NCBI RefSeq assembly: GCF_009914755.1
Contig: NC_060930.1
Direction: 5' to 3' (one strand)
DNA from: the human T2T-CHM13v2.0 reference genome, Homo sapiens
DNA length: 64,000 nucleotides
The notes beneath the pieces are model-generated. The model was not told where the DNA came from. It was given only the letters and a program-made list of their open reading frames with translations, and ran no database searches. Position numbers and translations under genes: made by a program. Of this stretch, positions 31,079-58,397 are shown one piece after another; the stretch's first letter is position 1; every line of letters starts with the position of its first letter.

Positions 31079-32407
31079 TCTTTTTCTTAAAGAGGGACAG
31101 ACTGAAGGTAGGCTGTGAATGGTCAGTTATTTGTATTTCTTTACCTTTTATGCTATCTTGTAGTTTGACCAGTTTGCAAAACAAATTGAATAAAAAGTAA
31201 TTGATAATGTTGTTTTGATGCTCAGTGTTTGAGGGAAACACAATCTAGTGAATGGGGTTATTGGTTGTCACACCTGGGAGAGTGAAAATGAGGGGCTCAC
31301 AACCCAGGTGAGGTCATCTGGTGCCACTCAGCCCCATCCCAGAGAAAGCAGCCTTGGGATGCTGGCCTCGGTGACAACCAAGAAGTGATGGTGGGTTGCT
31401 AGAGACAGGGTGGAGCACAGAGCCCTGGAAGGAAGCAGGAAGTCAGGTTCAAGAAAGGACTTGTGACCTCACCCTTGGCTTCAGGGTTTTATTTTTCTTT
31501 CTTTTAAAACATTTTGAGACAACATGTAGACATTCAAACTTACAGAACAAAGAACTATTTTTTCCCTGAATCATTTGAGACTAAGTTCCCTCCTATCACC
31601 AGACATTTCTACAAATGAGGACCTTCACAGGACTAAGGTGCCACCATCAGAACCACAATATGTGGGGACGGTACTGCCAGCTAAGCCTCAGTGCTGTTTC
31701 GGTGTTGACAGCTGTCACAATGATGCCCTTTTCAGTAGAGGAGCCTGTGATGGTCACGTGTTGCAGGTGATCATTGTGCCATTTGGTTTACTTCTGTCTG
31801 GAAAGTTTCTCCTTTCTGTAACCTCCATGACCTTGACACATGAGGTCACTCTTCTCACCCGCCCCACCTCTGGGAGGGTGCCTGATTTGCCCTGCCCCAC
31901 CCAGCGGCTTTAGGACTCAGCTCTTCAGGAACAATTAGGGAGAGGGCCCTTGGGTCTAACTGCAAAATCATACTTGAACTAGAAAATCCCGTTGGCATAG
32001 GTATGGATTGTCATATAGAAACATTTTTCGCAGTGTGCCCCGTGGAACACTTGTTCTGTATGTTGTTAACAGATGTTTTGCAAAAAATGAAAAGGACCTG
32101 AGCTCTAATAAGTTTGGGAAATGCTGAATTGAAGTGAAACAGCTTTTCTTGGTGTGAGACCTTTCAGAGTCTTTAAAGGAGAGTTGCTGACCACACGTGA
32201 AATCACAATAGAAAATGGCCAGCAGGCCTCCAGGTAGGCAGCAATTCCTAGACATTTGCCTGTGTTCCCTGGGGGAGCTGGTGGCCTGTGACCATCCACT
32301 GGGAAATTCCCTTCTGTGGCGAGGTTCTGTTGTTTTCCAGAGGCTCCCACGGAGCATGCTGGGTGGGTGGTCTGTATGAGACCACACCGTTGATGAGCAG
32401 TGAGGCC

Positions 32408-47455: not shown

Positions 47456-49346
47456 GGTGCTAAGATCATGAGGTCCACTCGGGGGGGATGTGGGCATTTT
47501 CCTGGCTTTTGACTCTCCCAACAAGAGGATCTCCTCTGGTGCTAAGATCATGAGGTCCACTCGGGGGGGATGTGGGCATTTTCCTGACTTTTGACTCTTC
47601 CCAACAAGAGGATCTCCTCTGGTGCTAAGATCATGAGGTCCACTCAGGGAGGGATGTGGGCATTTTCCTGGCTTTTGACTCTCCCAACAAGAGGATCTCC
47701 TCTGGTGCTAAGATCATGAGGTCCACTCGGGGGGGATGTGGGCATTTTCCTGGCTTTTGACTCTCCCAACAAGAGGATCTCCTCTGGTGCTAAGATCACG
47801 AGGTCCACTCGGGGGGGATGTGGGCATTTTCCTGGCTTTTGACTCTCCCAACAAGAGGATCTCCTCTGGTGCTAAGATCATGAGGTCCACTCGGGGAGGA
47901 TGTGGGCATTTTCCTGGCTTTTGACTCTCCCAACAAGAGGATCTCCTCTTCTGCTAAGATCATGAGGTCCACTCGGGGGGGATGTGGGCATTTTCCTGGC
48001 TTTTGACTCTCCCAACAAGAGGATCTCCTCTGGTGCTAAGATCATGAGGTCCACTCGGGGGGGATGTGGGCATTTTCCTGGCTTTTGACTCTCCCAACAA
48101 GAGGATCTCCTCTTCTGCTAAGATCACGAGGTCCACTCGGGGGGGATGTGGGCATTTTCCTGGCTTTTGACTCTCCCAACAAGAGGATCTCCTCTGGTGC
48201 TAAGATCACGAGGTCCACTCGGGGGAGATGTGGGCATTTTCCTGGCTTTTGACTCTCCCAACAAGAGGATCTCCTCTGGTGCTAAGATCATGAGGTCCAC
48301 TCGGGGGGGGATGTGGGCATTTTCCTGGCTTTTGACTCTCCCAACAAGAGGATCTCCTCTGGTGCTAAGATCATGAGGTCCACTCGGGGGGGATTTGGGC
48401 ATTTTCCTGGCTTTTGACTCTCCCAACAAGAGGATCTCTTCTGGTGCTAAGATCATGAGGTCCACTCGGGGGGTATGTGGGCATTTTCCTGGCTTTTGAC
48501 TCTCCCAACAAGAGGATCTCCTCTGGTGCTAAGATCACGAGGTCCACTTGGGGGGGATGTGGGCATTTTCCTGGCTTTTGACTCTCCCAACAAGAGGATC
48601 TCCTCTGCTGCTAAGATCATGAGGTCCACTCGGGGAGGGATGTGGGCATTTTCCTGGCTTTTGACTCTCCCAACAAGAGGATCTCCTCTGGTGCTAAGAT
48701 CATGAGGTCCACTCGGGGGGTATGTGGGCATTTTCCTGGCTTTTGACTCTCCCAACAAGAGGATCTCCTCTGGTGCTAAGATCATGAGGTCCACTCGGGG
48801 GGGATGTGGGCATTTTCCTGGCTTTTGACTCTCCCAACAAGAGGATCTCCTCTGGTGCTAAGATCATGAGGTCCACTGGGGAGGGATGTGGGCAGTTTCC
48901 TGGCTTTTGACTCTCCCAACAAGAGGATCTCCTGTGGTGCTAAGATCATGAGGTCCACTCGGGGGGGATGTGGGCATTTTCCTGGCTTTTGACTCTCCCA
49001 ACAAGAGGATCTCCTCTGGTGCTAAGATCATGAGGTCCACTCGGGAGGGATGTGGGCATTTTCCTGGCTTTTGACTCTCCCAACAAGAGGATCTCCTCTG
49101 GTGCTAAGATCATGAGGTCCACTCAGGGAGGGATGTGGGCATTTTCCTGGCTTTTGACTCTCCCAACAAGAGGATCTCCTCTGGTGCTAAGATCATGAGG
49201 TCCACTGGGGAGGGATGTGGGCATTTTCCTGGCTTTTGACTCTCCCAACAAGAGGATCTCCTCTGGTGCTAAGATCATGAGGTCCACTCGGGGGGGATGT
49301 GGGCATTTTCCTGGCTTTTGACTCTCCCAACAAGAGGATCTCCTCT
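47456..49346. repeat. 82-bp VNTR, ~23 copies, SLC22A1 intron 1
   Basis: Unit GGTGCTAAGATCATGAGGTCCACTCGGGGGGGATGTGGGCATTTTCCTGGCTTTTGACTCTCCCAACAAGAGGATCTCCTCT; 1891 bp. Confidence 0.98.
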
Positions 49347-53307: not shown

Positions 53308-53612
53308 GGAGACAGAGAGAAGGGACAGAGAGCCAGGTGCTGCCGCAGGAGACAGGGAGAGGGGACAGAGCCAGGTGCTGCCCCAGGAGACAGAGAGGGG
53401 ACAGAGCCAGGCGCTACTGCAGGAGACAGGGAGAGGGGACAGAGCCAGGTGCCGCTGGAGGAGACAGGGAGAGAGGACAGAGCCAGTCACTGCCCCAGGA
53501 GACAGGGAGAGGGGACAGAGCCAGGCACTGCCCCAGGAGACAGGGAGAGGAGACAGACCCAGATGCCGCTGCAGGAGACAGGGAGAGGGGACGAAGCCAG
53601 GTGCCGCCACTG
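53308..53612. repeat. ~38-bp purine-rich minisatellite, ~8 copies, SLC22A1 intron 2
   Basis: Unit CAGGAGACAGGGAGAGGGGACAGAGCCAGGTGCTGCCC; starts at 53346, 53384, 53420, 53458, 53496, 53534, 53572. Confidence 0.92.
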
Positions 53613-54614: not shown

Positions 54615-56001
54615 TAACGTGGGTAGGGGGTTGTTTGTGGGGTCAAGGAGCTTGCGGGGCACCAGTTCCTTGTATTTATGTGACTAGGGCAGGACATGGG
54701 CTAGAATGGCCTCCTCTCTTTTTGTGTCTGAGACACTTAAATTATCACTTAGATTACTGACCTATTAATCAACTAATCTATTTGGGGAACAAAAAGACCC
54801 CATGCTGATGTGCTCACAGCAGTCAGGATGGGGTGCAGAAGAGGAGATAAGTGAGAGAATATTCTAGCATTTTACATAAGAAAGAACCAGCAACTCCTTA
54901 AAATAAATACAGCAAACTTGACGGGCTTGAATGGCACTCAAGAATTAGGAAAGAAAACAGGAGCAAATAAAATAAGGATTGTGAAAATCAGGATTTTGAA
55001 AAAGTTGAAGTATAAACCAACATGAGGAGTTTTACATATCAGCCTTTTTTTCCCTTTCAAATATTCTAAGGTTAAGAATACAAAACAAAAAACCCTTTCC
55101 GGGAGGAATGCAGCCTAAGAGTCATCTGTACTTCCCCAGGCCAGGGCACGGCAGCCAGCAGTGAGGATGAGCCACACTTTTACTCATTTGTGGGGGAGAA
55201 AAAAGAAATAGCCATGTCTTTTCATCTTTGAAAACAAGGTGCTATCACTTGGCATTCTGAGAACTCATTCACTAGGGCCAAGAGGATCCACGTTCCCGCC
55301 TTGAGAAGCCATGAGCAGCCTGGTGAAGCTGAGCTGGCTCAGCCCCATGCGTGTGGAGCCTGTGACAGCCTCTGCTGCTAGGCACCGTCCCACACATGGT
55401 TAGGGGGTCTGACCCGGGGCCACATCCACGCTCCAACACCACCCGCAGCCCCTCCACCCACGACTCCCCTGACTTCCTTTTCCCCTTTTCATTTTTGTTC
55501 CCGTTACACGTATCACGCTCTAACATAGGATTGCATTCTCTTATCTGTGATGTGGAGCGTCTGCCAAATGAGGTCTCCCAGGGCAGGACTCTACCTCCTA
55601 TGCTTAACGATGTGCCTCAGACACCCCGCACAGTACCAGGTCCCCAGGAGGCACTCAAAGATATTTGCTAAATGAATGAACACCCCTGGGGTCCTGACAA
55701 ATATTCCAGCTGAGTCTGGAGCTTCTCGAGGAAGGCGTTGGGGAGGAGAGGCCAGTGGACTGAGTCCTGAAGCAGGCAGAGGGGAGTGCAGATGGTAAAG
55801 GAGCAGACGCGGAAAGCGACGGTCAGGGAAAAGCCAGAGAGCCAAGCAGCCTGGTGGATCTCCGGGGCCTTGGTTTGATGGGTCCGGGGCCCCGGTTTGA
55901 TGGGTCCGGGGCCCCAGAGAGAAGGGGAGGCGTGAGCGCGGCTGTGGTTTGCGGGAAGGAGAAATGGGAGACACACAAGAGAGAAGCCTGGGAGCAGGTG
56001 A

Positions 56002-56304
<303 letters not shown>

Positions 56305-56433
56305 TGAGGCCCTTCCTCCTGCCTACGGGGAAGGGGCGCCGGCCACCCCTCTGGCTGCGCTTTCTGTCCTCTCGAGGGACCAGTCTCTTGGAGTGGGGGG
56401 CGCCTACAGGCCGTCTTCCAAAGGCCATGGTGT

Positions 56434-56898
56434 CCACATGCATAACGCATGGGGCTGCGCGGAGCCCGGCGCTTCCCACACTCATGACGCATAGGGATGA
56501 GCTGGTCCCGGGGTTTCCCACACGCATGACGCATAGGGATGAGCTGGTCCCGGGGTTTCCGACACGCATGACGCATAGGGATGAGCTGGTCCCGGGGTTT
56601 CCCACACGCATGACGCATAGGGATGAGCTGGTCCCGGGGTTTCCCACACGCATGATGCATAGGGATGAGGGGAGCCTGGGGCTTCCCACATGCATGATGC
56701 ATAGGGATGAGCAGAGCCCGGGGTTTCCCACATGCATGATGCATAGGGATGAGCAGAGCCCGGGGTTTCCCACACGCATGATGCATAGGGCTGCACAGAG
56801 CCCGGGGTTTCCCACAGGCATGATGCATAGGGCTGCACAGAGCCTGGGGTTTCCCACACGCATATCGCATGGGGCTGCGTGGAGCCAGCGCTTCCCAC
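56434..56898. repeat. 42-bp VNTR, ~11 copies, SLC22A1 intron 4
   Basis: Unit GCATGACGCATAGGGATGAGCTGGTCCCGGGGTTTCCCACAC; 14-aa periodicity in the ORF track. Confidence 0.96.
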
Positions 56899-58397
56899 CA
56901 CTTGTACTGTTCAGGTTGTTCTGTTATTACCAGGCGGCCCAGGTTACATGTGGAGCTTTCCTCAGACAAAGCCTCTTTAGATAGGTTCCCCCAGATAAAG
57001 GTGGGCCATGCCAAGAGTCGGACAGAAATCCAGGAAAACTCAGGGCCTCAGCATGTGCACTTTCCAGAAACACAAGGCTGAACCTCACTCCCGGGTGAAG
57101 GAGGCAGCTTTTTGAGGGTTGCTCAGTGGCCTTGGGAAATCTGTATCAGCGTCCAGTGGTAGGAAAGTCTCCACAGGTGGCAATCCCACTGCAATGGCTA
57201 CCACTCCCGAGAGTCCCCTAGAGTCCGTCCCAGGGGTGCTGGCATGAAGTCAGATGCTCTGTTATCTTCTTGATCCTCTCCCTCTTCCCCCTCTTCTCTT
57301 CCTCTCTGCTGTCATCTCTGCTCTTCTCCCACTTCTTCATTTTTATAGTACTATTGGTATTATTATTAAGACACTGAAATACCTCTCATCTAGCCATAGA
57401 GCAGGCATTTGATCTTGATTGAATGAATGAGTGACAGAATGAAGGAACAACAGGCCTGCTCAATGCAACCTTCTCTGGGGACTGTGTACCCTGAGCCATT
57501 ATGACACAGAATCAGTCCAAACAAGGTGTTAATCATATTAGCTGTGAGTGCTTCGCAGAGTCTGAAGGGCAAAGAACTCCACAGGTCAGTTTTTATTGTG
57601 GTGGAGGGAAGAGGGGGTAGCAGAAAGGTCCACAGAGAGGAATTTCTCATCCCTCCACCTTTTGTCTTAGTTTTGCTGAGAGCAGACCTCATCTGTGGGT
57701 GGCACTAGAGTTAACCCAGTCTCTCTAAATGAAAGAGTTGTACACGTATGGCCAGGGAGTTCTGAGGAGCCTGCCCTTCCCCTGCCTCGTCCTTGTGAAA
57801 CAGGGATCTCTCCAGCAGAAAGGCAAATTCTGCATGCTCAGGCAGGGTGAGGCAGTCAATGCCGGCCAGCTTTCAGAAGACCCTTATGCCAGAGAGGCCC
57901 AGTCTTTGAGTTGTACCCTCCTCGTCCCATTTGAAATAGACAGCATGGTGTTGATTTGATTTTAAAGGACAGTAAATACATTTTATTTTGTTTGAGAAAT
58001 ATTTTGAGAAGTGTTCAACAGCCCTTGTATTGCCTGGAGATGTCCTGGTGTCATCGGGTAATATACATGGAGCATCTGCTCTGTGAGTGTTTTCCGTGGG
58101 GGACAAAGGCTGCCCCAGGAGAGATGAGGCCCCTGCTGCACAGAAGGAAGGCTACATAGGAAGCGATGGCTCCCTTTTGGTCTATAAATCTTAGGTGACA
58201 CTAGGAGTCTGAGTGACCCACAGAGCTGTGACCTGGGCCACATGGGCTAGCGCACAGTGACCCCAGGTCCTCATCCTCTTGAGGGATTACAGCCCCAACG
58301 TGGGGAGGGCAGGCTGCACTGAGCAACAGCATCACCCCGCTCAGGGCTGAACGTCAGACCGAGGAAAATGCCAGATAGTGATGAGTGGTGTTCGCAG

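What the first reader, a model, noticed from the sequence alone, without database searches (positions are those of the whole stretch)
56434..56898. SLC22A1 intron-4 VNTR is a phased array of consensus NF-kB sites overlapping RBPJ sites
Seen: GGGGTTTCCC at 56510, 56594, 56636, 56720, 56762, 56804 and 56846, GGGGCTTCCC at 56678, and a degenerate copy at 56552. Eight match GGGRNWYYCC, and each overlaps TTCCCAC (reverse GTGGGAA, the RBPJ/CSL core). The 42-bp period is four helical turns, placing sites on one DNA face; units also carry TGACGCA/TGATGCA (bZIP-like). The outermost units lack the kB site. Inference: a copy-number-variable inflammation/Notch-responsive element, resembling a synthetic kB reporter, 130 bp from exon 4 of a drug transporter.
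Basis: partly seen in the sequence, partly recalled or inferred. Interest (0 to 1): 0.7.

Follow-up and report, generated by a model that had tools for sequence, protein, structure and literature searches.

The report
Cryptic NF-kB repeat enhancer in SLC22A1
A 42-letter DNA repeat inside the drug-transporter gene SLC22A1 carries eight textbook sites for the inflammation switch NF-kB, each overlapping a Notch-pathway site; DNA containing it boosts a plasmid reporter in a colon-cancer cell line, but it barely varies between people and is likely kept shut in the chromosome.

Summary
In detail: 11 head-to-tail units of 42 bp (56438-56898), 8 kB-consensus sites, each overlapping an RBPJ core. It is the longest of only 2 tandem arrays of this composite site in the genome at 20-50-bp spacing. 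It has reporter activity: a published GP5d STARR-seq peak has its summit in the array, and the RefSeq enhancer is centred on it. But that peak belongs to a cluster described as silenced at the chromosomal locus. Length is nearly fixed (399.9 +/- 4.8 bp in 18 genomes, not an eVNTR). kB arrays are no commoner than reversed-pattern controls. Phasing is at chance level. kB columns are not better conserved. TNF did not change OCT1 in two cell systems. kB clusters in repeats and RBPJ/NF-kB crosstalk sites are known classes. Verdict: likely a chance-born cryptic enhancer; factor binding untested. New member of a known kind.

The parts
56438..56898 (.). Minisatellite of 11 head-to-tail units (ten of 42 bp, last of 41 bp); about hg38 chr6:160,134,259-160,134,719
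   Evidence: hg38 offset
56510..56855 (.). Eight kB-consensus decamers (56510, 56594, 56636, 56678, 56720, 56762, 56804, 56846) plus one broken copy at 56552
56473..56898 (-). Ten RBPJ cores, all in one orientation; 8 overlap a kB site, 2 lie in the outer units; no head-to-head paired site
56438..56479 (.). Unit 1: ancestral-type unit, RBPJ core without kB site; 5 differences from unit 11, 8-11 from inner units
56858..56898 (.). Unit 11: ancestral-type unit, 41 bp, RBPJ core without kB site
56270..57017 (.). Published GP5d genome-wide STARR-seq peak (hg38 chr6:160134090-160134838), summit at about window 56560, cluster 3
   Evidence: PMC10474299 supplementary file 4; converted
56070..57269 (.). 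RefSeq functional element 'enhancer', 1200 bp, centre 56669.5 against array centre 56668; its source assay not seen
   Evidence: hub annotation in the finding; (presumed source paper not held)
56135..56303 (+). SLC22A1 exon 4, 134 bp upstream of unit 1
   Evidence: hub annotation; translation
56447..56871 (+). Ten GCATG words on the transcribed strand (RBFOX-type RNA motif, recalled), one per unit except unit 2

Best explanation
This is a nearly fixed 42-bp minisatellite whose inner units carry a composite NF-kB/RBPJ site; DNA containing it works as an enhancer on a plasmid, likely through NF-kB dimers binding the eight sites, while in the chromosome it is likely shut in most cells (a cryptic enhancer) and likely arose by chance. 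Shown: the anatomy; reporter peak with summit in the array; near-fixed length; no excess of such arrays over controls. Inferred: (1) history - the ancestral unit had only the RBPJ core (as units 1 and 11 still do), two substitutions in an inner unit made the kB site (unit 6 keeps the half-way state), and block duplications spread it; (2) germline methylation, from CpG-type decay at 7 of 18 variable columns; (3) NF-kB as the activator, because all strict kB and RBPJ sites of the 1.6-kb surroundings lie in the array and p53 and AP-1 sites are absent; (4) RBPJ would compete with NF-kB, not cooperate, because the sites overlap and no paired site exists; (5) closed chromatin, from the cluster label in one cell line.
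For: GP5d STARR-seq peak chr6:160134090-160134838, signal 12.39, qval column 18.9 (MACS2 -log10 scale assumed), summit at window 56560; an even spread of 15,390 summits would hit a given 465 bp with p about 0.002. Cluster 3 = low signal, little open chromatin or active marks, 'resemble cryptic enhancers'. RefSeq functional elements need experimental support and this one is centred on the array. All 8 strict kB and all 9 full RBPJ sites in 55800-57400 are in the array; no AP-1 or p53 half-site; best p53 full-site with both cores has 6 mismatches. Three-copy crosstalk-site reporters: 7 of 7 respond to RelA to some degree, NICD suppresses 6 of 7. Chance origin: triple kB arrays 270 and 158 matches against 209 and 478 for reversed controls; stricter patterns 33 and 13 against 28 and 32; composite 12-mer 261 against 385. 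No extra conservation of kB columns: 2 of 10 vary against 11 of 32, p 0.47. Length 399.9 +/- 4.8 in 18 genomes, eVNTR False. No similar unit in the first 1.4 kb of SLC22A2 intron 4, no second copy in the genome.
Against: No ChIP, ATAC or methylation data for this locus were seen; cluster 3 holds 10,741 of 15,390 peaks (70%), so the label is a weak statement about one peak in one unstimulated cancer line. The peak is 748 bp and includes the end of exon 4 and flanks, so the array is not shown to be the active part. Only one of 36,549 held rows of the GP5d sheet matches, so it was not called in the other libraries' rows that were held; HepG2 and RPE1 sheets were cut. The composite array is rare (2 loci, control 1), which a selection story would also predict. 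No primate sequence was available to date it.
Confidence: 0.55

Rival explanations
1. A real inducible enhancer in vivo: in some cells (myeloid, B cells, airway, demethylated tumours) the array opens, NF-kB binds, and SLC22A1 or IGF2R rises; Notch/RBPJ damps it.
For: Reporter activity; meets the sequence rule of kB homotypic clusters, which as a class are p65-bound and virus-inducible, 588 elements; LPS raised OCT1 mRNA and protein in one Calu-3 study cited in a review; region is CpG-rich for an intron (obs/exp 0.59).
Against: TNF and shorter LPS exposure did not change OCT1 mRNA in Calu-3; TNF did not change ASP+ uptake in hepatocyte spheroids of one donor, phenotype not verified; cluster 3 in GP5d; no SLC22A1 or matching coordinate in the one held supplement of the RBPJ crosstalk paper, which lists promoter peaks only; no sign of selection.
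Confidence: 0.2
2. RBPJ is the main reader: ten same-orientation sites recruit RBPJ co-repressors (a silencer), or NICD/EBNA2 in Notch-active or EBV-infected cells; the kB match is a by-product.
For: RBPJ core is in 10 of 11 units and is older than the kB site; its columns vary once; RBPJ represses through kB-overlapping sites at other genes (passages).
Against: No head-to-head paired site: best second half at 15-17 bp has 3 of 7 mismatches for all 10 sites; the measured activity is activation in a line without known Notch drive; no locus-level RBPJ data.
Confidence: 0.1
3. The motifs are inert and the reporter peak has another cause: unmethylated CpG-rich plasmid DNA, bZIP half-sites, a splice signal, or read mapping on a repeat.
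For: Peak called in the non-methylated library and in no other held row; 9 bZIP-like half-sites; exon 4 donor and one minus-strand acceptor-like stretch in the peak; low-signal cluster.
Against: Reads were filtered at MAPQ 20 and called against input; a separate RefSeq enhancer is centred on the same array; no full bZIP site.
Confidence: 0.1
4. The array acts in the pre-mRNA: ten GCAUG words 143-567 nt downstream of exon 4 bind RBFOX proteins and promote exon 4 inclusion, or the strong fold affects splicing.
For: 10 GCATG on the sense strand against 1.5 per kb in the window; folding z -3.4; exon 4 is 169 nt, so skipping would shift the frame.
Against: Only 2 of 10 are the full UGCAUG; GCATG arrays are everywhere (895 matches, control 34); shuffles destroy the repeat, so the fold z-score is inflated by copying one palindromic unit; exon 4 is in the selected transcript and no skipping data were seen.
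Confidence: 0.05

Closest known systems
kB homotypic clusters (kBR-HCTFBS) among p65 ChIP-STARR-seq enhancers, PMC11934927
   Same: Three or more kB sites within 400 bp, head-to-tail, in repetitive DNA; 111 p65 elements lie in simple tandem repeats, 588 clusters in all (passages).
   Different: Membership needs p65 binding and virus-inducible activity, not seen for this locus (supplement unreadable); here every site also overlaps an RBPJ site.
RBPJ/NF-kB crosstalk (CT) sites of Hes1, Il6, Ifnb1, Igk, NFKB2; PMC13736121
   Same: Overlapping kB and RBPJ motifs; the array is a natural version of their three-copy reporters (sections 27 and 29).
   Different: Those are single, conserved, promoter sites with shown double occupancy; this is an intronic eight-copy array without occupancy data or evidence of conservation.
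Cryptic enhancers in genome-wide STARR-seq (GP5d cluster 3), PMC10474299
   Same: The locus is itself a row of that cluster.
   Different: The cluster is described with p53 and zinc-finger motifs and about half transposons; this member is a kB/RBPJ minisatellite without p53 site.
Expression-linked VNTRs (eVNTRs), including those at SLC22A1
   Same: GC-rich minisatellite in an annotated enhancer, the kind enriched among eVNTRs.
   Different: This array is flagged eVNTR False. The published SLC22A1 repeats are others: the 82-bp intron-1 VNTR, a lead length-eVNTR at chr6:160070993 and a liver motif in the 38-bp repeat at window 53308.

Membership tests
Minisatellite | Head-to-tail units longer than 6 bp | tested here: met
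   Period 42, 10.2 copies by TRF, 91% matches, 0% indels; 11 units by alignment
VNTR (polymorphic) | Common copy-number alleles | tested here: not met
   Mean 399.9, SD 4.8 against ref 401 in 18 genomes; of six allele mixes tried only 'one of 36 haplotypes lacks a unit' fits; small sample
eVNTR | Length or motif associated with nearby expression | tested here: not met
   eqtl False (genotyping error 0.194 exceeds one unit, so power is low); no chr6 row at 160134 in Lu 2023 files 3-5, file 4 cut; 0 hits in 4 held files of PMC11701250
kBR-HCTFBS (PMC11934927) | At least 3 non-overlapping kB sites within 400 bp | tested here: met
   8 consensus sites in 346 bp; by pattern match, not by the paper's matrix scan
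kBR-HCTFBS (PMC11934927) | p65 bound in cells and stimulus-inducible reporter activity | not testable with these tools
   Supplement too large to read
RBPJ/NF-kB crosstalk site | kB motif overlapping an RBPJ motif | tested here: met
   8 of 8 kB sites
RBPJ/NF-kB crosstalk site | Occupancy by RBPJ and/or NF-kB | tested here: inconclusive
   No hit in the one held supplement; that list covers promoter peaks only
Notch sequence-paired site | Two RBPJ sites head-to-head 15-17 bp apart (geometry recalled) | tested here: not met
   All 10 sites in one orientation; best partner has 3 of 7 mismatches
Episomal (STARR-seq) enhancer | Peak over input in a genome-wide reporter library | tested here: met
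   GP5d peak with summit in the array
Cryptic enhancer | Closed or unmarked at the endogenous locus | tested here: inconclusive
   Cluster 3 label in GP5d only; no locus-level tracks
CpG island | GC above 50% and CpG obs/exp at least 0.6 over 200 bp or more (rule recalled) | tested here: inconclusive
   Array GC 0.62, obs/exp 0.59; one 500-bp window upstream reaches 0.62

The most novel reading that the evidence does not exclude
The genome's longest tandem array of NF-kB/RBPJ crosstalk sites is a latent inflammation-versus-Notch switch inside SLC22A1: shut in liver and epithelia, it opens in activated immune cells or demethylated tumours and drives OCT1 (or neighbouring IGF2R) there, changing cationic-drug uptake outside the liver.
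Probability: 0.12. Interest if true: 0.65.

Novelty: new member of a known kind. Interest (0 to 1): 0.3.

Why it matters
As a cryptic enhancer it matters little: one of thousands of plasmid-active, chromatin-silent stretches. It is still a handy natural test piece: eight crosstalk sites in one 461-bp fragment with measured reporter activity, on which NF-kB/RBPJ competition can be tested directly. If it opens in immune or tumour cells it would give a mechanism for OCT1 expression outside the liver. Because its length is nearly fixed it is unlikely to explain differences in drug response between people.

Tried and rejected
Helical phasing as design: rejected, 8 of 35 other kB arrays are within 1 bp of a whole turn and 4 of 35 within 0.5 bp, against 26% and 13% by chance (35 of about 42 other loci read by hand from the first 100 listed rows irregular ones left out). 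Selection on the sites: not seen (few columns, low power). Paired Notch site: rejected. p53 or AP-1 as driver: no sites. Full bZIP, AhR or NRF1 sites: none. Paralogue origin: nothing similar after SLC22A2 exon 4; SLC22A3 was not returned. Identity with the published SLC22A1 VNTR: that is the 82-bp intron-1 repeat. Coding role: a 368-codon unspliced frame crosses the array, reached by 1.6% of 500 flank shuffles, post hoc and not followed up; normal read-through of exon 4 stops at once. Source of the RefSeq enhancer: I recall that 1200-bp RefSeq enhancers come from HCT116 STARR-seq (Neumayr 2022), but that paper is not held and only shows that such names exist. Papers not held. Searches that found no description of this array: (listings only).

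Full report
Observation. The window holds 11 head-to-tail units from 56438 to 56898, 134 bp after SLC22A1 exon 4. TRF gives period 42, 91% matches, no indels; unit 11 is 41 bp. The array has no second copy in the genome by DNA search (that search skips common words) and no counterpart in the first 1.4 kb of SLC22A2 intron 4.

History read from the units (inference). Units 1 and 11 differ at 5 places, but each differs from the inner units at 8-14, so they likely keep the older state: RBPJ core, no kB site. Two substitutions turn that state into the kB site, and unit 6 has only one of them. Units 2-5 differ by 0-2, units 7-8 by 0 and units 9-10 by 2, which points to block duplication. Seven of 18 variable columns are CpG-type transitions, which suggests germline methylation. 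Among inner units 2 of 10 kB columns vary against 11 of 32 others (p 0.47), and 1 of 7 against 3 of 21 when CpG columns are removed: no sign of selection, with little power.

Is the arrangement special? Triple kB-consensus arrays with 10-40-bp gaps give 270 and 158 matches in the genome against 209 and 478 for the reversed patterns; the first 100 listed rows of each already cover 18 and 26 loci. Stricter patterns give 33 matches at 13 loci and 13 at 5 loci, against 28 and 32 control matches. The composite 12-mer occurs 261 times against 385, 7 of them here. Pairs of composite kB+RBPJ sites at 20-50-bp spacing are rare: 8 matches at 2 loci, 6 here and 2 in a 30-bp repeat on contig C17, against 1 control match. 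So this is the longest such array in that spacing range, but a shuffled unit yields the composite in 0.03% of trials, enough for a handful among more than 55,000 VNTRs. Phasing: 26% of integer periods from 20 to 50 lie within 1 bp of a whole turn, and 8 of 35 other kB arrays do (spans read by hand, 7 irregular loci left out).

Is it variable? The hg38 place was fixed from the 38-bp repeat row and confirmed by the k-mer. In Lu et al. 2021 (PMC8275641; supplementary row, legend and passages) the locus chr6:160134282-160134683 has reference length 401, assembly mean 399.9, SD 4.8 in 18 genomes, Vst 0.0026 (ANOVA p 0.017), eVNTR False. Of six allele mixes tried, only one missing unit in one of 36 haplotypes fits. 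Short-read error for the locus is 0.194, larger than one unit, so the eQTL negative is weak. Lu et al. 2023 (PMC10234305; supplement searches; locus list unreadable and one file cut) link SLC22A1 to two other repeats, not this one. PMC11701250 gave 0 hits in 4 held files. The Garg preprint text has no SLC22A1 (its supplements are closed and may bear on methylation effects). The 'SLC22A1 VNTR' of PMC8327921 is the 82-bp intron-1 repeat (passages and supplement).

Does it do anything? Yes on a plasmid. PMC10474299 (supplement search, passages) lists a GP5d genome-wide STARR-seq peak at chr6:160134090-160134838, non-methylated wild-type library, signal 12.39, summit at window 56560, inside unit 3. 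It is in cluster 3, which the authors describe as low-signal, poor in open chromatin and active marks, and like cryptic enhancers; that cluster holds 70% of the 15,390 peaks. It is the only match in the 36,549 held rows of that sheet; the file is cut, so other cell lines were not seen. Separately, the RefSeq enhancer 56070-57269 is centred within 2 bp of the array centre; such records need experimental support (PMC8744684, passages), but I could not see which assay. Within 55800-57400 all strict kB and full RBPJ sites are in the array, and there is no AP-1 or p53 site, so NF-kB is the likeliest activator. That step is inferred, not shown.

How would the two factors act? The sites overlap, all point one way, and there is no head-to-head partner, so competition is expected, not cooperation. 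In PMC13736121 (passages, sections 27 and 29) three-copy reporters of seven crosstalk sites all responded to RelA to some degree, three also to NICD, and NICD suppressed six. Its one held supplement has no SLC22A1 or matching coordinate, but its peak list is promoter-only.

Does it control SLC22A1? Nothing seen says so. A review (PMC7730617, passages) reports LPS raising OCT1 in Calu-3 in one study, and no change with shorter LPS, TNF or IL-4 in another. TNF did not change ASP+ uptake in hepatocyte spheroids of one donor, with the caveat that the inflamed phenotype was not verified (PMC11283471, passages).

Rivals. In-vivo inducible enhancer in some cell type (0.2); RBPJ-led silencer or Notch/EBNA2 element (0.1); inert motifs with another cause for the peak (0.1); RBFOX-type splicing element, from 10 GCATG words on the sense strand, weakened because such arrays are very common (895 matches against 34) (0.05).

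Known kinds and novelty. kB homotypic clusters in repeats are a described class of 588 p65-bound elements, 111 p65 elements lying in simple tandem repeats (PMC11934927, passages; supplement unreadable). Crosstalk sites are described too. The locus is already annotated as an enhancer. I found no paper that describes this array or its motifs (search listings; subscription papers are not covered). Verdict: real feature with reporter activity, likely a chance-born cryptic enhancer, new member of a known kind, interest 0.3.

Noticed in passing
window 55878-56984 (+): Unspliced 368-codon open frame from an ATG in intron 3 through exon 4 (other frame) and the whole array; 1.6% of 500 flank shuffles reach this length. 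Likely a GC-rich, period-divisible-by-three accident.
   Followed up: partly
window 47456-49346: 82-bp intron-1 VNTR, 23 copies here against 22 in hg38; the human-specific SLC22A1 VNTR of PMC8327921.
   Followed up: partly
window 53308-53608: 38-bp repeat in intron 2; a motif in it is a liver eQTL candidate for SLC22A1 (p 4.1e-8, PIP 0.19, SNP-like) in PMC10234305.
   Followed up: partly
L065:620-735 (G000:C17:3975519-3975634): The only other tandem array of composite kB/RBPJ sites: 30-bp unit, 3.9 copies, 100% identical, so likely young.
   Followed up: partly
G000:C5:109717836-109717891 and G000:C8:55496844-55496917: Short arrays of three strong kB-consensus sites, candidates for the same kind of test.
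   Followed up: no
window 55750-56750: CpG-rich stretch over exon 4 and the array (obs/exp 0.53-0.62), just at island level, while the paralogous SLC22A2 intron start is AT-rich.
   Followed up: partly
window 32301-32311: Single strong kB-consensus site on both strands in the IGF2R 3' UTR.
   Followed up: no
window 56480-56773: Units 2-8 carry a weak GGGA-core look-alike exactly 16 bp head-to-head from the RBPJ site, with 3 of 7 mismatches; probably chance.
   Followed up: partly
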